Source: Escherichia coli (GTDB taxonomy: Bacteria; Pseudomonadota; Gammaproteobacteria; Enterobacterales; Enterobacteriaceae). From it: a stretch of DNA of 64,000 nt. The DNA lies in the NCBI RefSeq assembly GCF_013315695.1, contig NZ_CP054353.1; one strand, written 5' to 3'. A model generated the notes under the pieces. The model saw only the letters and a list, made by a program, of their open reading frames with translations, made no database searches and had not been told where the DNA came from. Below are positions 36,570 to 51,981 of this stretch, in pieces. A program made the position numbers and the translations under genes. Numbering within the stretch: position 1 is the first letter of the stretch; each line of letters opens with the position of its first letter.

Positions 36570-39197
36570 TTATTCTTCTTCTGGCTCGTCGTCAACGTCC
36601 ACTTCCGGAGCGATTTCATCGTCTCCTTCCGCGGCACTGCCATCGATGGTGTCCAGATCTTCCTCGTCAACCGGTTCAGCAACACGTTGCAGACCCACTA
36701 CGTTTTCATCTTCCGCAGTACGGATGAGGATCACGCCCTGGGTGTTACGGCCCACGATGCTGATTTCTGAAACGCGAGTACGTACCAGCGTACCGGCATC
36801 GGTGATCATCATGATCTGGTCGCAGTCATCTACCTGCACCGCGCCAACCACTAAACCGTTACGTTCGGTAACCTTGATGGAGATAACCCCTTTCGTCGCA
36901 CGCGACTTGGTTGGGTATTCCGCCACTGCGGTACGTTTACCATAACCGTTCTGCGTTGCGGTGAGGATTGCGCCATCACCACGAGGTACGATCAGAGAGA
37001 CGACTTTATCGCCTTCGCCTAAACGAATACCGCGAACACCGGTGGTGTTGCAGCCCATCGCACGGACAAAAGACTCTTTAAAGCGCACCACTTTACCTTC
37101 AGCGGAGAACAGCATTACTTCATCTTCGCCACTGGTCAGGTCAACGCCGATCAGCTCATCGCCTTCAACCAGTTTGATCGCCACTTTACCGGCGGTACGC
37201 AGACGGTTGAATTCGGTGAGGACAGTTTTCTTCACGGTACCGTTAGCGGTCGCCATGAAGACTTTCACGCCTTCTTCAAACTCGGTCACCGGCAGGATCG
37301 CAGTGATACGTTCGTCCTGCTCCAGCGGCAGCAGGTTGACGATCGGACGACCACGCGCGCCACGAGTAGCTTCTGGCAACTGGTAAACCTTCATCGAATA
37401 GACGCGACCACGGCTGGAGAAGCACAGAATATGGTCGTGCGTGTTCGCCACCAGCAGTCGGTCGATAAAGTCTTCTTCTTTAATACGTGCGGCAGATTTA
37501 CCTTTCCCGCCACGACGCTGCGCTTCATATTCCGAAAGCGGCTGATATTTAACGTAGCCCTGGTGAGAGAGCGTCACGACCACATCTTCCTGGGTGATCA
37601 GATCTTCCAGGTTGATGTCTGCGCTGTTGGCGGTGATTTCAGTACGACGTTTGTCACCGAACTGTTCACGAACCAGCTCCAGCTCTTCGCGGATCACTTC
37701 CATCAGACGATCGGCGCTACCAAGAATACGCAACAGCTCCGCGATCTGATCCAGCAGCTCTTTGTATTCGTCGAGCAGTTTTTCGTGCTCAAGGCCGGTC
37801 AGTTTCTGCAAACGCAGATCCAGAATCGCCTGAGCTTGCTGTTCGGTCAGGTAGTACAGACCATCGCGCACGCCGAACTCTGGCTCCAGCCATTCCGGAC
37901 GCGCAGCATCGTCGCCCGCACGTTCCAGCATCGCGGCAACGTTGCCCAGCTGCCACGGATTAGCAACCAGCGCGGTTTTCGCTTCTGCAGGCGTCGGCGC
38001 ATGACGGATCAGTTCGATGATCGGGTCAATGTTCGCCAGCGCCACGGCTAATGCTTCAAGGATATGAGCACGATCGCGAGCTTTACGCAGTTCGAAAATG
38101 GTACGACGGGTCACCACTTCACGGCGGTGACGAACAAACGCCGCGATGATGTCTTTCAGGTTCATGATCTTCGGCTGACCATGGTGCAATGCCACCATGT
38201 TAATACCGAAAGAAACCTGCAACTGGGTCTGGGAGTAGAGGTTGTTAAGCACAACTTCACCGACCGCATCGCGTTTCACTTCAATCACGATGCGCATACC
38301 GTCTTTGTCAGACTCATCACGCAACGCGCTGATGCCTTCCACGCGTTTTTCTTTTACCAGTTCCGCAATTTTTTCGATCAGGCGAGCTTTGTTCACCTGA
38401 TACGGAATTTCGTGGACGATAATGGTTTCACGCCCGGTTTTGGCGTCAACTTCCACTTCCGCACGGGCGCGGATATACACCTTGCCACGACCGGTACGGT
38501 AAGCTTCTTCAATACCGCGACGACCGTTAATGATTGCCGCCGTCGGGAAGTCCGGCCCCGGGATGTGTTCCATCAGCCCTTCAATGCTGATGTCTTCATC
38601 ATCGATATACGCCAGACAACCGTTGATGACTTCCGTCAGGTTGTGCGGCGGGATGTTGGTTGCCATACCTACGGCGATACCGGAAGAACCGTTCACCAGC
38701 AGGTTAGGAATTTTGGTTGGCATGACGTCCGGAATTTTTTCCGTGCCGTCATAGTTATCAACGAAATCGACCGTCTCTTTTTCGAGATCGGCCATCAGTT
38801 CATGGGCAATTTTCGCCAGACGGATTTCCGTATAACGCATTGCCGCCGCAGAGTCGCCGTCGATGGAACCGAAGTTACCCTGACCGTCTACCAGCATGTA
38901 ACGCAGCGAGAATGGCTGCGCCATACGGACGATCGTGTCATAAACCGCCGAGTCACCATGGGGATGGTATTTACCGATTACGTCACCAACGACACGGGCA
39001 GATTTTTTATAGGCTTTGTTCCAGTCATTGCCTAGTACGTTCATGGCGTAAAGTACGCGACGGTGTACCGGCTTCAGGCCATCTCGGACATCCGGCAGCG
39101 CACGGCCAACAATGACCGACATCGCATAATCCAGATAGGAGCTCTTCAGCTCTTCCTCAATGTTGACCGGTGTAATTTCTCTCGCAAGGTCGCTCAT
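36570..39197 (-). CDS. gyrA: DNA gyrase subunit A
   Basis: 875-aa ORF; active-site Tyr region and QRDR ([11 protein letters not shown]) present; acidic C-terminal tail. Confidence 0.95.
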
Positions 39198-39407
39198 CTA
39201 ACCGCTATCCCTCTACTGTATCCCGGATTCAAAGGTCGGAGATTATAACACAATCGCTTGCGGACGGGTAAACGTAATGCAGGCTTCCGGGCGCTGTAGA
39301 TCTACTGCGTTTTACCCCACCGCCAGCACACATCGCGCTGGCGGTGAACGACAAAGGAACAAAGACCGCAACACGCTTCCTGTGCCTCAATAAACACCAG
39401 AAATAAT

Positions 39408-39527
39408 GGCTATACTCGTCATACTTCAAGTTGCATGTGCTGCGTCTGCGTTCGCTCACCCCAGTCACTTACTTATGTAAGCTCCTTGGGATTCACTCGC
39501 TTGTCGCCTTCCTGCAACTCGAATTAT
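39408..39527. repeat. ERIC/IRU enterobacterial repetitive intergenic consensus element
   Basis: Contains CGCTCACCCCAGTCACTTACTTATGTAAGCTCCTTGGGATTCAC, matching both ERIC primer-site halves as I recall them, plus the flanking imperfect palindrome. Confidence 0.7.
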
Positions 39528-39547
39528 TTAGAGTATATAAATCGCCG

Positions 39548-40750
39548 TTATTTGATCACATAGGCAAGATATTGTTGTACGATTTCATCGTTTAATTCCT
39601 GACCAAGCCCAGGCAACTCTGGCGCGACATAATAGCCATTCTCGGGTTGATAATCGTAAGTACAAAGTTCCCGAATACATGCTTTCATCGCATTGGTATG
39701 ATGTTCATGAATAATAAAGTTAGGTATTGCAGTTTCCATATGCAGCGCCGCTACTGTTGAAACAGGCCCGCCACAAACATGTACCTGAACGGTTGTGTCA
39801 TATATATTGGCATAATCACAAATTTTCTTTCCCTCTGTAATGCCACCACAAAGACACAAATCAGGTTGAGCTACCGCAATTGATTGTTTTTCCAGTAAAT
39901 CACGATATCCCCAGCGAGTATAAGAACGCTCACCTGTTGCTATCGGAATCGATGTTGAACGGGCAACTTTCTGCATATTATCCGAATTTAATGGATGAAT
40001 TGGCTCCTCATAGAGAAAAATACGATATTTCTCTATTGCTTTGGCAAACTGGATCGCTGAATTTGTTCCTAGAAGAGAATGAATCTCTACAATAATATCA
40101 GCATCGTCGCCCATTGCTTCACGCATAGCGGCAATTCTTGCCTCGCCCATTTTTAATTGTTCGGCCAGTAATAAGCCAGAGTAATTTCTATTTTTGTTCT
40201 GAAAGACACAATCGCCGCCATGCAGATCGATTTCAAGCGGATCAACTTTTATCGCATTATAACCTTCTGCAATAGCGGCACGCGCTGCCTCTGCATACTC
40301 TTCAGGCGTTACTAATATTTGCCTTTTTTCGCCCCAACCAAATTGTAACTGACTGGCGTAAGTTCTCAATTTATCGTTAGTCTTTCCCCCCAGTAGTTGA
40401 TAAACCGGCACGTTTAAATATTTACCTTTAATATCCCATAAGGCAATATCAATAGCGCTCATACCTGCGTAAAAAACATTACCACCGCCCATTCCCCAAA
40501 ATGTTTTCCTGAAGAGGAATTCCCAAATCTTCTCAATGTTCAACGGATCTTCACCAATGATGAGAGGGGCTAAATCTCTGATAATACCAACACCAGATTT
40601 TGCACCTGCACCATAGGCTAATCCTACTTCGCCAACACCACTTATTCCAGCATCGGTATTAACCCGAATAAGTACTGGATTATAAGAGGCCATAGTTTGA
40701 TCTCTTTTTTTGAGTTCGCAGTCAAAAATTTCTACAGATGTAATCTTCAT
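39548..40750 (-). CDS. enolase-superfamily sugar-acid dehydratase (mandelate racemase/muconate lactonizing enzyme fold; DgoD/ManD-like)
   Basis: ORF 39548..40762; start placed at ATG 40750 (MKITSVEIF...) which has a GAGG Shine-Dalgarno 7 nt upstream; N-terminal capping domain and metal-binding barrel motifs typical of the family. Confidence 0.8.
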   Translation of the reverse strand: MKITSVEIFDCELKKRDQTMASYNPVLIRVNTDAGISGVGEVGLAYGAGAKSGVGIIRDLAPLIIGEDPLNIEKIWEFLFRKTFWGMGGGNVFYAGMSAIDIALWDIKGKYLNVPVYQLLGGKTNDKLRTYASQLQFGWGEKRQILVTPEEYAEAARAAIAEGYNAIKVDPLEIDLHGGDCVFQNKNRNYSGLLLAEQLKMGEARIAAMREAMGDDADIIVEIHSLLGTNSAIQFAKAIEKYRIFLYEEPIHPLNSDNMQKVARSTSIPIATGERSYTRWGYRDLLEKQSIAVAQPDLCLCGGITEGKKICDYANIYDTTVQVHVCGGPVSTVAALHMETAIPNFIIHEHHTNAMKACIRELCTYDYQPENGYYVAPELPGLGQELNDEIVQQYLAYVIK

Positions 40751-40762
40751 AAATAACCTCAT

Positions 40763-41998
40763 TTATTTAGCATGTGAAATAACATTGTCTTTCTGGGCGT
40801 TATCTTTTTTATTATCAATTTTCATTGATAACAAAATAGCTACGGCGATAAAGCAAAGAATCGCCTCAACAATAAATATCCCCGTGGCTCCATAATGTGT
40901 AGAAACATAGCCAAGTGATTTATTGATCAGAAAACCACCCAAACTTGAACAAGAGTTAATAAACGCAATACTGATTGCCAGGCCTGATGGTGAAAGTAAA
41001 GCTGAGGGTAAAGCCCAGTACGGACCGTAATAACTGAGAATGCCTACACCGTATAATGTTAATCCCATCATGCGCAGCGTCATCGAAGGTACAAGTGCGA
41101 TCATTAAAAAACCGCAACCTGCAACCAACATCGGTAGTGCGGCATGCCATTTCCTTTCATTCTTTTTATCGGAATGCCATCCCCATAATGGCATACTGAA
41201 CATCGCGAAAATAAACGGAATACTCATAATCAAACCGACATCGGTATCTGTGAAATCCGATGAAAATCCTTTAACCAACCCCGGTAACCAGTAATTTGCC
41301 GCCAACGCCGCTGCCTGAATAAACATATAAGCAAATGAGAGTTGTAGTAATACTGGATTTTTAATGATTGACAGAAAAGATGCATTTGTATTTTTATTTA
41401 ATGCTGCGGCTTTTTCGTTATCAGAATTAAGTTTATCGACCAATGCGGTGACTTGCGATGGTGTAAGCCAGCGGGCTTTTTCCGGACGATCTGGCAGTAA
41501 ATAAAAGGTCAGCGCCCCCAATAACACCGTAGGAATGCCTTCAATAGCAAAAAGCCAGCGCCATCCTTCATAGTTACCGGTATTCATATGTTCAATAATC
41601 CAACCAGACATTGGTGCCGCCAGCACAGATGCAACTGCGATTGATAACATAAAAAAGCTATTCACTTTTCCACGTTCGCGCGCCGGGAACCAACATGCCA
41701 GGTAGTAAACCATGCCAGGGAAAAACCCCGCTTCAAATATTCCCAAAAAGACCCGAGCGAGCAATATATGCTGGGTGTCTTTGGCAAAGAAAATTAACGT
41801 TGTTACTGTTCCCCAACCAACAATAATGGCGCTAATCCATTTTCTTGCACCTAACTTTTGCAATCCAATACTGCTCGGAGTTTGAAAAATTAAATAGGAC
41901 ACAAAAAATATTGAAGATATATTAGCAAAATCCTCTGGAGTAATACCAAGGGATTCATTCATGCGTAAAGCGGCAAACCCAATATTAACACGATCCAT
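40763..41998 (-). CDS. MFS transporter, anion:cation symporter-like (sugar-acid uptake); 5' end apparently frameshifted, see findings
   Basis: 411-aa ORF with MFS signature (DRVNIGFAA...) ; the expected first about 31 codons are in a different frame (ATG at 42090). Confidence 0.75.
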   Translation of the reverse strand: MDRVNIGFAALRMNESLGITPEDFANISSIFFVSYLIFQTPSSIGLQKLGARKWISAIIVGWGTVTTLIFFAKDTQHILLARVFLGIFEAGFFPGMVYYLACWFPARERGKVNSFFMLSIAVASVLAAPMSGWIIEHMNTGNYEGWRWLFAIEGIPTVLLGALTFYLLPDRPEKARWLTPSQVTALVDKLNSDNEKAAALNKNTNASFLSIIKNPVLLQLSFAYMFIQAAALAANYWLPGLVKGFSSDFTDTDVGLIMSIPFIFAMFSMPLWGWHSDKKNERKWHAALPMLVAGCGFLMIALVPSMTLRMMGLTLYGVGILSYYGPYWALPSALLSPSGLAISIAFINSCSSLGGFLINKSLGYVSTHYGATGIFIVEAILCFIAVAILLSMKIDNKKDNAQKDNVISHAK

Positions 41999-42180
41999 AT
42001 AGTTAAAAAATACAGAATAAATGCTAACGGAATAATCTTCCTTTTCACAATAGAAATGGCATCATACAAATCTTTCTGAGGACTGCTCATTTTGTTTCAC
42101 CTTTTGTGCTTCAATGAATAAGAGTACTACCCGAAGTGGATATTACGTAAAAAATAATCCAGTTCAAAAGGTGATGTGTT

Positions 42181-42196
42181 ATATCTGATATATCAG
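42181..42196. promoter_or_regulatory. palindromic operator-like site ATATCTGATATATCAG (copy 1) in divergent MFS/GntR promoter region
   Basis: CTGATATATCAG is a perfect palindrome; near-identical copy 70 bp downstream. Confidence 0.5.
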
Positions 42197-42250
42197 CCTG
42201 ATCATTGATTGAAACACTAACCTACAACAATAAGATACATTATTTTTGTC

Positions 42251-42266
42251 ATATCTGATATATTAG
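42251..42266. promoter_or_regulatory. operator-like site ATATCTGATATATTAG (copy 2)
   Basis: 15/16 identical to copy 1; 62 bp upstream of the GntR gene start. Confidence 0.5.
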
Positions 42267-42327
42267 ACACCTTCATTTATAAAATGATTACATATAATGG
42301 GTCAGCAGCTTAATAAGGGGCAAAGGA

Positions 42328-43026
42328 ATGAGAGATAAAGCGAAACGTGACTTAAGTCACATATCAATTGAGATACCAAAATCCGTAACCCAGGTCATCA
42401 AAGAAAAAATCAGGGATATGATAATTCATGGCGATCTCAGTCTTGGGCAACCGATAAGTGAAAATGAACTTTCGAATATTCTGGCGGTAAGTAAAACACC
42501 TATTCGTGAAGCTTTTATTTTACTTAGTCACAATGAAAATCTGATCAATATCATTCCACGCAGCGGAACATTCGTTTTTTCCGTAACAGATAAAGATATT
42601 AATGACCTCATAAAAATGCGAGTAATTCTGGAGCAGGGTGCAATTAGTGAAACAATGGAAAAGAATGCAAACAATGTCATCATTGAACTAAATAGTATAC
42701 TATCAAAATCAGCAAAAATTAATGCCGAGCGCGATACTCAGGCTTATCTTAAACTGGATCATGATTTTCATTATGTGTTTGTTAAATACGCTGATAATAA
42801 ATACATCTCTCAGGCACACCAATTGATATCCGCACGTTTACTTGCTATCCGTTATCGACTGGATTTCACTACGGAATATATCACCAATTCAAATCGTGGC
42901 CATGCGACTATTTTAGATATGCTAAAAAATAATAACGTTGAAGGTGTTTGTAATTTTATTACTCATCACGTAAGTAGTGGATTTACCGAGCGCGCACGAA
43001 AAATTCTCTCGTTATCTACACAGTAA
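42328..43026 (+). CDS. GntR-family transcriptional regulator (N-terminal wHTH, C-terminal FCD-like domain)
   Basis: 232-aa ORF with GntR HTH signature (ISENELSNILAVSKTPIREAF); strongly A/T-ending codon usage. Confidence 0.8.
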   Translation: MRDKAKRDLSHISIEIPKSVTQVIKEKIRDMIIHGDLSLGQPISENELSNILAVSKTPIREAFILLSHNENLINIIPRSGTFVFSVTDKDINDLIKMRVILEQGAISETMEKNANNVIIELNSILSKSAKINAERDTQAYLKLDHDFHYVFVKYADNKYISQAHQLISARLLAIRYRLDFTTEYITNSNRGHATILDMLKNNNVEGVCNFITHHVSSGFTERARKILSLSTQ

Positions 43027-43103
43027 AATGTGAATGAGTTTATAACACTGGCACTTTTCACCTGCTATACTGCCCGACAACCTTTATAGACTCTTATGTA
43101 ACA

Positions 43104-43826
43104 ATGAACACTGAAAATCTCCTTAAAAACAATAACGTAGACCACGAAGAGATCGCTAAATTTGAAGCCGTCGCCTCCCGCTGGTGGGATCTGGAAGGTG
43201 AGTTCAAACCGCTGCACCGTATTAACCCGCTGCGTCTGGGCTATATTGCCGAGCGTGCTGGCGGTTTATTTGGCAAAAAGGTGCTCGATGTCGGTTGTGG
43301 CGGCGGCATTCTGGCCGAGAGTATGGCGCGCGAAGGTGCGACGGTGACCGGTCTGGATATGGGCTTTGAGCCATTGCAGGTGGCAAAACTGCACGCACTG
43401 GAAAGCGGCATTCAGGTGGATTACGTGCAGGAAACCGTGGAAGAGCACGCGGCAAAACATGCCGGGCAGTATGATGTGGTGACCTGCATGGAGATGCTGG
43501 AGCACGTCCCCGATCCTCAGTCAGTGGTCAGAGCCTGTGCGCAACTGGTGAAACCGGGCGGCGATGTCTTTTTCTCGACGCTCAACCGCAACGGCAAGTC
43601 ATGGCTGATGGCGGTGGTTGGTGCTGAATATATTTTGCGCATGGTGCCTAAAGGTACACATGATGTGAAGAAGTTTATTAAACCGGCAGAATTGCTGGGC
43701 TGGGTGGATCAGACCAGTCTTAAAGAACGGCATATGACCGGGCTGCATTACAACCCTATAACTAATTCCTTTAAGCTCGGCCCCGGCGTTGATGTGAACT
43801 ATATGCTGCACACGCAGAATAAGTGA
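43104..43826 (+). CDS. ubiG: bifunctional 3-demethylubiquinone / 2-polyprenyl-6-hydroxyphenol O-methyltransferase
   Basis: 240-aa ORF with SAM-binding motif (VLDVGCGGG) matching UbiG. Confidence 0.9.
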
Positions 43827-47724: not shown

Positions 47725-48257
47725 ATTAATCTGACCATCATGTTCTATAAGACGGCATATTTAATCGCATTATACGATATGGGTTATTTTTCTTTTGTAA
47801 ATTGTTCAACCCGGTGCAATGGCTATTTTGTTATTATTTCATGAATAATATCAGTGCGTCATAATTCAAGTTAATCACCTTAAGGGATATCAGTTATGTT
47901 TAAACTGAATTAAAGTAATGAATAATTTTCTTATAATATAAGGTAAATTAACAAAATGGCTTCGCATTTAACAACAACCGAAGAGAAAACAACCATTTCG
48001 ACATCAACAATCGCTTACATTCGCTTATATATTGACCATAACTGATACATCAGATTATGTGATGACTCGTGCTTAGATCAATTTTTGCAATCATTAGCCA
48101 AAAGATTAATAAACCATCTATATCAATTTATCTAACCTATTCTTCCGTTCAAGAAATCGCCGAACAGTTATTTTTAACAAATTTTTCTCTTCCCATTGAC
48201 TTTCCCGGACACCTTGTCTGACCTAAGGTGCGCGAAAGCCACTTTTTCCTTCCTGAG

Positions 48258-50705: not shown

Positions 50706-50835
50706 TATTGAGATGCCGGATGCGGCGTGAACGCCTTATCCGGCATACGGCTCGGTTTGTAGGCCTGATAAGACGCGCCAGCGTCGCATCAGGCACAGGA
50801 TGCGGCGTAAAATGCCTTATCCGGCATTAAACTCC
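50706..50835. repeat. REP/BIME cluster between nrdA and nrdB
   Basis: Tandem GCCGGATGCGGCG...CTTATCCGGC units. Confidence 0.7.
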
Positions 50836-50850
50836 CAACAGGACACATTC

Positions 50851-51981
50851 ATGGCATATACCACCTTTTCACAGACGAAAAATGATCAGCTGAAAGAACC
50901 GATGTTCTTTGGTCAGCCGGTTAACGTGGCTCGCTACGATCAGCAAAAATATGACATCTTCGAAAAGCTGATCGAAAAGCAGCTCTCTTTCTTCTGGCGT
51001 CCGGAAGAAGTTGACGTTTCTCGTGACCGTATCGATTACCAGGCACTACCTGAACACGAAAAACACATCTTTATCAGCAACCTGAAATATCAGACGCTGC
51101 TGGACTCCATTCAGGGTCGCAGCCCGAACGTGGCACTGCTGCCGCTGATCTCGATCCCTGAACTGGAAACCTGGGTCGAAACCTGGGCGTTCTCAGAAAC
51201 CATTCACTCTCGTTCTTATACCCATATCATTCGTAATATCGTTAACGATCCGTCCGTTGTGTTTGACGATATCGTCACCAACGAGCAGATCCAGAAACGT
51301 GCGGAAGGGATCTCCAGCTATTACGATGAACTGATCGAAATGACCAGCTACTGGCATCTGCTGGGCGAAGGCACCCACACCGTTAACGGTAAAACCGTGA
51401 CCGTTAGCCTGCGCGAGCTGAAGAAAAAACTGTATCTCTGCCTGATGAGCGTTAACGCGCTGGAAGCGATCCGTTTCTACGTCAGCTTTGCCTGCTCTTT
51501 CGCATTCGCTGAACGTGAGCTGATGGAAGGTAACGCCAAAATTATTCGCCTGATTGCCCGCGACGAAGCCCTGCACCTGACCGGCACCCAGCATATGCTG
51601 AATCTGCTGCGCAGCGGCGCGGATGATCCGGAGATGGCGGAAATTGCCGAAGAATGTAAGCAGGAGTGCTATGACCTGTTTGTCCAGGCGGCACAGCAAG
51701 AGAAAGACTGGGCGGATTATCTGTTCCGTGACGGTTCGATGATTGGTCTGAATAAAGACATTCTCTGCCAGTACGTCGAGTACATCACCAACATCCGCAT
51801 GCAAGCTGTCGGTTTGGATCTACCGTTCCAGACACGTTCCAACCCGATCCCGTGGATCAACACCTGGCTGGTGTCTGATAACGTACAAGTTGCCCCACAG
51901 GAAGTTGAGGTGAGTTCTTATCTGGTCGGGCAGATTGACGCGGAAGTGGACACCGACGATTTGAGTAACTTCCAGCTCTGA
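50851..51981 (+). CDS. nrdB: class Ia ribonucleotide reductase beta subunit (diiron-tyrosyl radical)
   Basis: ORF 50800..51981; start moved to ATG 50851 ([12 protein letters not shown]...) to give the 376-aa NrdB. Confidence 0.9.

What the first reader, a model, noticed from the sequence alone, without database searches (positions are those of the whole stretch)
42179..42266. Duplicated palindromic operator-like motif in the divergent MFS/GntR promoter region
Two copies of ATATCTGATATAT(C/T)AG lie 70 bp apart between the divergently transcribed transporter-dehydratase operon and the GntR gene. The first contains the perfect palindrome CTGATATATCAG. Paired palindromes in a divergent intergenic region are the expected arrangement for autoregulation by a dimeric GntR-family repressor that also controls the adjacent operon, so these are candidate operators of the island regulator.
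Basis: partly seen in the sequence, partly recalled or inferred. Interest (0 to 1): 0.45.

Follow-up and report, generated by a model that had tools for sequence, protein, structure and literature searches.

The report
Paired operator sites of a GntR regulator
Two copies of a 16-base AT-rich palindromic motif between a sugar-acid transporter/dehydratase operon and its neighbouring GntR regulator gene are conserved far better than the DNA around them, and similar palindromes accompany related regulators in distant bacteria. They are therefore very probably that regulator's binding sites: a sound but fairly ordinary finding.

Summary
ATATCTGATATATCAG (42181-42196) and ATATCTGATATATTAG (42251-42266) lie exactly 70 bp apart. 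They sit in the 237-bp divergent region between an MFS/enolase-superfamily dehydratase operon and a GntR/FCD regulator gene. This three-gene cassette lies between gyrA and ubiG, and 140 of 5426 complete E. coli genomes carry it. A repeat of this quality arises in 2 of 2000 shuffles. The 12-bp palindrome alone is not unusual (255 of 2000).

The decisive evidence is comparative:
- Both 16-mers are identical in Salmonella (the STM2273-2275 locus), against 66% identity for the rest of the spacer.
- They are 28/32 identical, again 70 bp apart, in a third lineage that carries the cassette in another genomic context (48% identity elsewhere).
- Regulators only 36-43% identical, in Enterobacter, Desulfovibrionaceae, Pleomorphomonas and metagenomes, are also linked to transporter plus dehydratase genes. 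They have TGATATATCA-type palindromes upstream.

The best reading is two operators for dimers of the cassette's own FadR-subfamily regulator. The motif keeps the family geometry (TGAT-AT-ATCA) but has A/T where the family hallmark is G/C, and the usual G-contacting Arg is Asn here. Binding, the sign of regulation, the promoters and the ligand are all inferred. It is a new member of a known kind, of modest interest.

The parts
42181..42196 (.). Site 1: ATATCTGATATATCAG. The perfect 12-bp palindrome CTGATATATCAG is at 42185-42196, and the 20-nt repeat unit starts at 42177. It lies 90 nt upstream of the MFS start codon.
   Evidence: Identical in Salmonella. ATGTCTAATATGTCAG in lineage X. No polymorphism in 7 E. 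coli alleles.
42251..42266 (.). Site 2: ATATCTGATATATTAG. The imperfect palindrome CTGATATATTAG is at 42255-42266, and the 20-nt repeat unit starts at 42247. It lies 61 nt upstream of the GntR start codon. It contains TGaTATATT (42256-42264), which resembles an extended -10 element on the + strand.
   Evidence: Identical in Salmonella. ATATCTAATATATTAG, a perfect palindrome, in lineage X. It is the most conserved 16-nt stretch of the spacer. The -10 resemblance is read directly from the sequence.
42328..43026 (+). GntR-family, FCD-type (FadR subfamily) regulator gene, 232 aa, ORF intact. This is the presumed binder of the two sites.
   Evidence: Pfam GntR at residues 22-83 and FCD at 93-216. 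Orthologues at 88% (Salmonella) and 72% (lineage X) start at the same Met. Intact in 5 further E. coli alleles although PGAP labels it 'frameshifted'.
40763..42090 (-). MFS transporter gene of the anion:cation symporter / D-galactonate-transporter type, first gene of the divergent operon. It is a pseudogene in this window: a 1-bp deletion in the A-run at 42005-42010.
39548..40762 (-). Enolase-superfamily (MR/MLE) acid-sugar dehydratase gene, near-identical to the Salmonella 'putative dehydratase' of PDB 2gl5/4e6m. Second gene of the operon.
   Evidence: E 3e-260 to 4e6m.
42140..42167 (-). Predicted sigma-70 promoter of the MFS operon: -35 TTGAAC (42167-42162), 16-bp spacer, -10 TAATAT (42145-42140). 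With this promoter the centre of site 1 falls near -57.
   Evidence: Read from alignments A2/A3. The same geometry is kept in Salmonella (TTGAAT-16-TAACAT) and lineage X (TTGTCT-16-TAACAT). This is inference: it falls below the threshold of the scan, and no TSS data exist.
42293..42298 (+). TATAAT, an alternative -10 candidate for the GntR gene. It is kept as TACAAT in Salmonella and TATTGT in lineage X. With it, site 2 would be centred near -44.
   Evidence: Inference only. A third candidate, TTGAAA-16-TAAGAT at 42209-42236, is the only hit of the scan and would put site 2 at about +8 to +23.

Best explanation
The two 16-mers are the operators of the cassette's own GntR/FCD (FadR-subfamily) regulator.

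Proposed mechanism, with each step marked:
- One regulator dimer binds each palindrome, one winged-helix domain per CTGAT/ATCAG half-site (inferred). The motif keeps the FadR-type layout TKGT-N2-ACMA, read here as TGAT-AT-ATCA (shown from the sequence).
- Site 2 overlaps or abuts the regulator gene's promoter, so the regulator controls its own synthesis (inferred).
- Site 1 lies just upstream of the -35 of the MFS/dehydratase promoter and controls that operon. It may act together with site 2, because the 70-bp spacing is conserved (inferred).
- By analogy with DgoR and other sugar-acid regulators, the protein is most likely a repressor. It would be released when the FCD domain binds the transported acid sugar or a product of it (inferred).

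Shown here: the sites, their conservation, their co-occurrence with this regulator clade, and the family of the protein. In this window the MFS gene is frameshifted, so the regulated pathway is probably defunct although the regulator and both sites are intact.
For: 1. Footprint in the close family. E. coli versus Salmonella is 32/32 identical inside the 16-mers and 66% outside (Fisher p 5e-6). E. coli versus lineage X is 28/32 inside and 48% outside (p 1e-5). The two 16-mers are the top-scoring conserved 16-nt stretches.

2. The start-to-start spacing is exactly 70 bp in all three lineages, although the DNA between the sites is almost unalignable in lineage X.

3. Lineage X carries dehydratase-MFS-GntR with the sites in a different neighbourhood (BrkB, LysR, SDR genes). 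The motif therefore follows the cassette, not the gyrA-ubiG locus.

4. In about 190 kb of fetched loci, the 12-mer with at most 2 mismatches occurs almost only in these spacers.

5. Distant relatives of the regulator (36-43% identity) are again next to MFS or TRAP transporter genes plus MR/MLE dehydratase genes. They have the same core upstream:
- Enterobacter: ATCTGATATATCAGAT and TGTGATACATCACA.
- Desulfovibrionaceae: TCTAATATACCAG and ATCTGATATATCAA, both in the divergent spacer.
- Pleomorphomonas: AGATATATCA and TGATGTATCT.
- Metagenome loci L024, L026 and L017.
Per-region shuffle p-values are 0.001-0.035.

6. Fourteen non-redundant sites give the palindrome TCTGATA|TATCAGA.

7. The protein has GntR plus FCD domains, and the recognition helix (V/I/L)SKTP(I/V)(R/H)EA is conserved throughout the clade.

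8. PMC4494728 reports that HTH position 28 (FadR Arg35) contacts the G of TKGT, that Arg there prefers G/C, and that Pro at position 40 avoids G/C. This protein has Asn46 and Pro58 at those positions. Its motif has A/T where the family has G/C, so the co-variation is coherent (inference).

9. None of the 12 polymorphic positions among 7 E. coli alleles of the spacer falls in a site. This is a weak test (p about 0.17).
Against: - No binding, expression or TSS data exist. The one Salmonella TSS table found lists only a weak internal start in STM2275.
- The motif lacks the family's GT...AC hallmark.
- Under the best-conserved promoter prediction, site 1 sits at about -48 to -63. That is upstream of the core promoter, a position more typical of an activator or a looping partner than of a simple repressor.
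- 70 bp is about 6.7 helical turns, not obviously in phase for looping.
- The AT-rich core resembles -10 elements, so part of the conservation could be promoter function.
- Two relatives show no such motif: L023, and the region upstream of the regulator gene in Pleomorphomonas.
- The set of distant loci is small and was inspected knowing the motif.
Confidence: 0.68

Rival explanations
1. The same protein binds the same sites but acts as a ligand-dependent activator, or dual regulator, of the MFS/dehydratase promoter rather than as a plain repressor.
For: With the conserved promoter prediction (-35 TTGAAC 42167-42162, -10 TAATAT 42145-42140), site 1 is centred near -57, a class-I-like position. 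In the Enterobacter locus the proximal palindrome ends 3 bp upstream of a perfect TTGACA. From general knowledge, FadR-subfamily members such as FadR at fabA and GlcC can activate.
Against: Sugar-acid FadR-type regulators with known mechanism are mostly repressors released by the substrate, for example DgoR. The promoter assignment is only a prediction. Site 2 overlaps -10-like sequence, which suits repression.
Confidence: 0.15
2. The conserved 16-mers are promoter elements (duplicated -10, extended -10 or UP-like AT-rich boxes) kept for RNA polymerase, not for a specific regulator.
For: Site 2 reads TGaTATATT, an extended -10 with 5/6 of TATAAT, on the strand of the GntR gene in E. coli and Salmonella. 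TATATT is kept in lineage X. AT-rich palindromes are common in this spacer.
Against: Site 1 gives only TATATC, which lacks the critical final T, on either strand. The full 16 nt are conserved, including positions irrelevant to a -10. The same palindrome recurs in G+C-rich spacers of unrelated bacteria, always beside a homologous regulator and at variable distances from the genes. A separate, conserved -35/-10 pair exists for the MFS operon.
Confidence: 0.08
3. The sites are bound by a different host factor, a global or nucleoid protein, rather than by the adjacent GntR regulator.
For: The cassette is AT-rich (31-42% G+C against about 52% in the flanks), which from general knowledge is typical of H-NS targets. 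A similar palindrome, ATAACTGATACATCAGATTAT, lies in the core yfaL-nrdA spacer, which most E. coli have without the island.
Against: The motif co-occurs with the regulator clade across Gamma- and Alphaproteobacteria and Desulfovibrionaceae, which do not share such host factors uniformly. It does not fit LexA (CTGT-N8-ACAG) or CRP (TGTGA-N6-TCACA) spacing; this is read from the sequence against consensus sequences known from the literature.
Confidence: 0.06
4. The repeat is a neutral local duplication, or acts as an RNA or cruciform structure formed by pairing of the two copies.
For: The two copies can pair into a 13-bp stem if transcribed together (-20.2 kcal/mol).
Against: The fold z-score is only -1.64, and 9 of 200 shuffles fold as well. 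Any two similar palindromes can pair. No Rfam family matches. The predicted promoters do not place both copies on one transcript. Neutral DNA would not stay 32/32 identical while its surroundings drop to 66%.
Confidence: 0.03

Closest known systems
DgoR and the dgo operon of E. coli (FadR-subfamily repressor of D-galactonate catabolism)
   Same: A GntR/FCD-type regulator controls an operon with an anion:cation-symporter MFS transporter and an enolase-superfamily acid-sugar dehydratase. There are two inverted repeats, each presumably bound by a dimer, and DgoR is released by the sugar acid.
   Different: DgoR's repeats are closely spaced, overlap one promoter and read TTGTAGTACAA, the canonical GT...AC type. 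Here the sites are 70 bp apart in a divergent spacer and read CTGATATATCAG. The regulator gene is divergent rather than first in the operon. The island has no kinase or aldolase genes. The regulator matches no curated NCBIfam family at its cut-off.
Canonical FadR-subfamily operators (TKGT-N2-3-ACMA; FadR, PdhR, LldR, UxuR, GntR) as compiled in PMC4494728
   Same: An AT-rich palindrome with half-site centres about 7 bp apart. Double sites in divergent spacers that contain the regulator gene are a described arrangement. Adjacent extra half-site boxes 7-12 nt away are also described, and ATATC recurs 9 nt apart inside each 16-mer here.
   Different: The hallmark G/C pair of GT/AC is A/T here (TGAT-AT-ATCA). 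The Arg that reads that G in FadR is Asn46 in this protein. This places it with the non-conforming FadR-subfamily motifs such as BioR (TTATMKATAA) and NanR.
LldR-type two-operator control (general knowledge, not tested here)
   Same: Two separated operators for one FadR-subfamily regulator around a promoter, thought to cooperate by DNA looping.
   Different: LldR's operators flank one promoter at a larger distance. Here the sites lie between two divergent genes, and the helical phasing of 70 bp is ambiguous.
Salmonella enterica STM2273-STM2275 locus (dehydratase of PDB 2gl5/4e6m, MFS, GntR regulator)
   Same: This is the direct orthologue. It has the same gene order and the same position between gyrA and ubiG, its regulator is 88% identical, and both 16-mers and the 70-bp spacing are identical.
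   Different: Salmonella has no yfaL between ubiG and nrdA. Some Salmonella records annotate a 294-aa regulator whose spurious N-terminal extension is translated straight through both sites. No paper in the searched library describes its operator or substrate.

Membership tests
GntR family, FadR subfamily (FCD type) | N-terminal winged-helix GntR domain (PF00392) | tested here: met
   Pfam GntR at residues 22-83, i-Evalue 1.5e-13.
GntR family, FadR subfamily (FCD type) | C-terminal all-helical FCD effector/oligomerisation domain (PF07729) | tested here: met
   Pfam FCD at residues 93-216, i-Evalue 1.2e-19. The closest solved chains are the FCD regulators 3sxy and 3fms.
GntR family, FadR subfamily (FCD type) | Operator that fits the palindromic NyGTNxACNy / TKGT-N2-3-ACMA consensus | tested here: not met
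   The sites read TGAT-AT-ATCA. The geometry fits, but A/T replaces the conserved G/C (against the consensus quoted). Other subfamily members also deviate (BioR, NanR).
GntR family, FadR subfamily (FCD type) | Dimer binds the operator and a small acid ligand releases it | not testable with these tools
   Needs EMSA or footprinting and ligand assays.
Operator of the adjacent regulator (comparative-genomics criterion) | Site conserved above background in orthologous spacers | tested here: met
   32/32 inside against 66% outside (Salmonella), and 28/32 against 48% (lineage X). p about 1e-5.
Operator of the adjacent regulator (comparative-genomics criterion) | Motif co-occurs with homologous regulators in unrelated genomes and contexts | tested here: met
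   Six of eight distant loci have TGATATATCA-type sites in the relevant spacers. None was found in L023 or in L025, a short contig where only 2-mismatch matches to the core occur, outside the regulator's short upstream spacer.
Operator of the adjacent regulator (comparative-genomics criterion) | Site overlaps the core promoter (for a repressor) | tested here: inconclusive
   The promoters are only predicted. Site 2 overlaps an extended -10-like TGaTATATT. Site 1 lies upstream of the conserved -35. No usable TSS data exist.
DgoR / D-galactonate regulon | Regulator is a DgoR orthologue, and the operon has kinase and aldolase genes | tested here: not met
   No NCBIfam hit reaches its cut-off; the best is phnR_burk at 77.9 bits against 271.5. 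The island holds only dehydratase, MFS and regulator genes.
LexA (SOS) box | CTGT-N8-ACAG, 16-bp palindrome | tested here: not met
   The site is CTG-N6-CAG, 12 bp. The LexA consensus is from general knowledge.

The most novel reading that the evidence does not exclude
A distinct and widespread clade of FadR-subfamily regulators has switched the family's hallmark G/C contact to A/T and reads TCTGATA|TATCAGA instead of TKGT..ACMA. The clade has the recognition helix SKTP(I/V)REA and usually a non-Arg residue at the position of FadR Arg35. It is the dedicated switch for a family of uncharacterised enolase-superfamily acid-sugar dehydratase plus transporter modules, including Salmonella STM2273-2275 (solved structures, unknown substrate). 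These modules occur across Proteobacteria and Desulfovibrionaceae. If so, the motif could be used to define the regulons and help to find the substrates.
Probability: 0.5. Interest if true: 0.45.

Novelty: new member of a known kind. Interest (0 to 1): 0.33.

Why it matters
- It gives a concrete, testable operator for an uncharacterised regulator shared by Salmonella (STM2275) and a minority of E. coli. The conserved core is the 14-bp palindrome TCTGATA|TATCAGA, and the two sites are 70 bp apart.
- It gives a handle on a dehydratase whose structure is solved (2gl5/4e6m) but whose substrate and pathway are unknown. The regulator's ligand should be the substrate or a product of it.
- It adds a case in which loss of the G-reading Arg in a GntR wing-helix domain goes with loss of the GT/AC hallmark in the operator. 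That is useful for rules predicting specificity.
- It shows that the 294-aa Salmonella model and PGAP's 'frameshifted' label on the E. coli gene are probably annotation artefacts. The extension is simply translated through the operator region.

Tried and rejected
- Two scans of genome contigs for relatives of the regulator, one with the single protein and one with an alignment, confirmed no locus. Orthologous loci were obtained through the look-up of encoding contigs instead.
- Literature searches for the locus tags, the PDB codes and the motif strings gave nothing on the operator or substrate. The only text hit for CTGATATATCAG is a PCR primer.
- A Salmonella TSS table lists only a weak internal start in STM2275, so the promoters could not be anchored.
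- Rfam found nothing in the spacer. An RNA stem between the two copies is not better than shuffles.
- I considered the 11-bp palindrome ATATC-T-GATAT as the real core. It is broken in both sites of lineage X (ATGTC-T-AATAT and ATATC-T-AATAT). The 12-14-bp palindrome is perfect in lineage X site 2 and in Enterobacter, and it is symmetric in the 14-site consensus.
- I also considered a 9-nt direct repeat of ATRTC inside each 16-mer. Lineage X site 1 changes both units to ATGTC. This cannot be excluded, and it may correspond to the 'additional half-site' boxes described in PMC4494728.
- LexA, CRP and NrdR boxes were rejected on spacing and sequence.
- Within-E. coli polymorphism is too sparse to be a test on its own (p about 0.17).
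- I did not run the costly metagenome scan. A plain motif pattern would be swamped by chance hits, and the paired pattern would mostly re-find the three known lineages.

Full report
**What is there**

The window is E. coli chromosome. gyrA (36570-39197, minus strand) and ubiG (43104-43826, plus strand) flank a low-G+C insert of 31-42% G+C, against about 52% outside. The insert carries three genes:
- An enolase-superfamily dehydratase (39548-40762, minus). It is near-identical to the Salmonella 'putative dehydratase' of PDB 2gl5/4e6m (E 3e-260).
- An MFS transporter of the D-galactonate-transporter type (40763-42090, minus).
- A divergent GntR-family gene (42328-43026, plus), with Pfam GntR at residues 22-83 and FCD at 93-216.

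The cassette occurs in 140 of 5426 complete E. coli genomes, always once and always on the chromosome. It is the counterpart of Salmonella STM2273-STM2275, which lies in the same place.

**The observation**

ATATCTGATATATCAG (42181-42196) and ATATCTGATATATTAG (42251-42266) lie 70 bp apart in the 237-bp divergent spacer. The repeat extends to 20 nt, TGTNATATCTGATATATYAG. Copy 1 holds the perfect palindrome CTGATATATCAG.

A 16-nt repeat with at most one mismatch arises in 2 of 2000 dinucleotide shuffles of the spacer. A perfect 12-bp palindrome arises in 255 of 2000. The duplication is therefore significant, and the palindrome by itself is not. In the 64-kb window the 16-mer with up to 3 mismatches gives 6 hits against 0.64 expected. 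The only hits away from the two sites are one palindrome at 48038-48057, counted on both strands.

**Phylogenetic footprint**

Salmonella, whose regulator is 88% identical, has both 16-mers unchanged and 70 bp apart. The rest of the spacer is 66% identical (32/32 inside against 136/207 outside, Fisher p 5e-6).

A third lineage, 'X', is known only from assemblies of sequencing runs, and its regulator is 72% identical. It carries dehydratase-MFS-GntR among quite different neighbours: BrkB, LysR, SDR, acetyltransferase and HEPN genes. Its spacer has ATGTCTAATATGTCAG and ATATCTAATATATTAG, again exactly 70 bp apart. That is 28/32 identity inside the sites against 48% outside (p 1e-5).

The two 16-mers are the best-conserved 16-nt stretches of the spacer. 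A third conserved block lies in the MFS leader at 42107-42126. Among seven E. coli alleles of the spacer (94-100% identical) there are 12 polymorphic positions, and none is inside a site. That is compatible with constraint but weak on its own.

**Distant relatives**

An exhaustive search of 1.84 billion representative proteins shows that the regulator is isolated. The next relatives are 43% identical and then 33-38%. Most of those inspected are again next to a transporter (MFS or TRAP) and one to three MR/MLE dehydratase genes. The relevant spacers contain the same core:

| Locus | Source | Sites |
|---|---|---|
| L020 | Enterobacter sp. BWH52 | ATCTGATATATCAGAT and TGTGATACATCACA, upstream of the MFS gene |
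| L022 | Desulfovibrionaceae | TCTAATATACCAG and ATCTGATATATCAA, the only hits with at most 2 mismatches in 16.7 kb, both in the divergent spacer |
| L019 | Pleomorphomonas | AGATATATCA and TGATGTATCT, upstream of the MFS gene |
| L026 | metagenome | CTGATATATCAC and CTGATATATTT, upstream of the MFS gene |
| L024 | NCBI assembly GCA_020861205.1 | GTGATATATTAC, just upstream of the regulator gene |
| L017 | metagenome | GAATATCTGATATTC and CTGATATA-N5-TATCAGATATC |

Shuffle p-values per region are 0.001-0.035. No site was found in L023 or upstream of the Pleomorphomonas regulator gene. Fourteen non-redundant sites give T.aTaTcTGATATATCAgA, that is the palindrome TCTGATA|TATCAGA. Spacing between paired sites is not conserved outside the close family (about 33-109 bp).

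**How it most likely works**

GntR regulators bind inverted repeats as dimers, one wing-helix domain per half-site. The FadR-subfamily consensus is TKGT-N2-3-ACMA. The present core aligns to it as TGAT-AT-ATCA. The geometry is the same, but A/T stands where the family has its hallmark G/C.

PMC4494728 reports that HTH position 28 (FadR Arg35) contacts that G, that Arg there prefers G/C, and that Pro at position 40 avoids G/C. This protein has Asn46 and Pro58 at those positions. Most of the clade has a non-Arg residue at position 28, while the recognition helix (V/I/L)SKTP(I/V)(R/H)EA is invariant. The regulator and the motif therefore deviate from the family norm in a mutually consistent way. 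This is an inference from published correlations, not a test.

I conclude that the two sites are operators of the cassette's regulator, one dimer on each.

**Promoters are only predicted**

- A conserved pair is kept in all three lineages for the MFS operon: -35 TTGAAC (42167-42162), a 16-bp spacer, and -10 TAATAT (42145-42140). It puts the centre of site 1 near -57.
- For the regulator gene, site 2 itself contains TGaTATATT, which resembles an extended -10 (42256-42264).
- Alternatives for the regulator gene are TATAAT at 42293-42298, and TTGAAA-16-TAAGAT at 42209-42236.

Site 2 therefore overlaps or abuts the regulator's own promoter in every version, which fits autoregulation. Site 1 lies upstream of the MFS core promoter, which would fit cooperative repression with site 2 or activation. 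By analogy with DgoR I favour a repressor released by the transported acid sugar. The sign of regulation and the ligand remain open.

**Rivals**

- Promoter elements only. This is weakened by the conservation of all 16 nt, by the poor -10 in site 1, and by the recurrence of the palindrome in G+C-rich spacers beside homologous regulators.
- Another host factor. This is weakened by the co-occurrence with the regulator clade across phyla. LexA and CRP spacings do not fit.
- RNA or cruciform structure, or a neutral duplication. The fold z-score is -1.64 and there is no Rfam match. Neutral DNA would not stay identical between E. coli and Salmonella.

**State of the locus in this window**

The MFS gene has lost one A from the run at 42005-42010 (A6 against A7) and is split into 43-aa and 411-aa ORFs. 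RefSeq marks it as frameshifted in the closest genome, while other alleles are intact. The regulator ORF is intact in every allele examined. PGAP's 'frameshifted' flag on it probably comes from a longer Salmonella model. A 294-aa Salmonella annotation is simply an open frame translated through both operators: '...NVSYLIYQQ...' and '...FLISDILD...'. SL1344 annotates the 231-aa form.

**Verdict**

This is a new, slightly non-canonical member of a well-known kind, the operators of a FadR-subfamily GntR regulator in a divergent spacer. Its main value is practical: it gives a defined motif for an uncharacterised regulator-transporter-dehydratase module shared by Salmonella and some E. coli.

Noticed in passing
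window 42005-42010 (MFS gene 40763-42090, minus strand): The MFS transporter is a pseudogene in this strain. One A is missing from a homopolymer run (A6 here, A7 in strain TCM3e1), which splits the gene into 43-aa and 411-aa ORFs. A paper on AT homopolymer strings lists the Salmonella orthologue STM2274 as a pseudogene in some serovars, so this run may be a recurrent slippage site.
   Followed up: yes
window 42284-43026; L001-L002, L027-L031; L003 4001-4885: RefSeq/PGAP marks the E. coli GntR gene 'frameshifted' in every record looked at, yet a 232-aa ORF with complete GntR and FCD domains is intact. It starts at the Met shared with Salmonella and lineage X. A 294-aa Salmonella protein model carries a 63-aa N-terminal extension that is just the spacer translated through both operator sites. 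This is probably an annotation artefact.
   Followed up: partly
window 39411-39545: A repeat of about 130 bp between gyrA and the dehydratase gene is present at a median of 6 places per E. coli genome. It gives a sub-threshold Rfam match to V_AS5 (47 bits against 96). It looks like an ERIC/IRU-type intergenic repeat.
   Followed up: partly
window 48036-48056 (yfaL-nrdA spacer): ATAACTGATACATCAGATTAT contains CTGATACATCAG, one mismatch from the operator palindrome. Its 10-bp core is identical to the second Enterobacter site. The surrounding DNA is core E. coli sequence (4992 of 5426 genomes) and the site is absent from the Salmonella ubiG-nrdA spacer. It is most likely coincidence or the site of another factor, and a possible cross-target in island-bearing strains.
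   Followed up: partly
window 42107-42126: A third conserved block of the spacer, TGCTTCAATGAATAAGAGTA, contains the small palindrome TTCAATGAA. It lies in the predicted MFS leader just upstream of the ribosome-binding site and is conserved in E. coli, Salmonella and lineage X. Its function is unknown.
   Followed up: no
window 39229-43100; L003; L006: The three-gene cassette sits between gyrA and ubiG in both Salmonella and 2.6% of complete E. coli genomes, with E. coli alleles differing by up to 5%. It sits in an unrelated neighbourhood in a third lineage. This fits either an old element lost from most E. coli or one exchanged through flanking homology. It was not resolved.
   Followed up: partly
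L017 5422-9081; L019 10767-14508: Distant relatives of the cassette carry three tandem paralogous MR/MLE dehydratase genes after the MFS gene. In L017 there are also two tandem GntR/FCD genes.
   Followed up: no
window 51082-51093: CTGAAATATCAG, one mismatch from the palindrome, lies inside the ORF at 50800-51981 downstream of nrdA. It is taken as a chance match.
   Followed up: no
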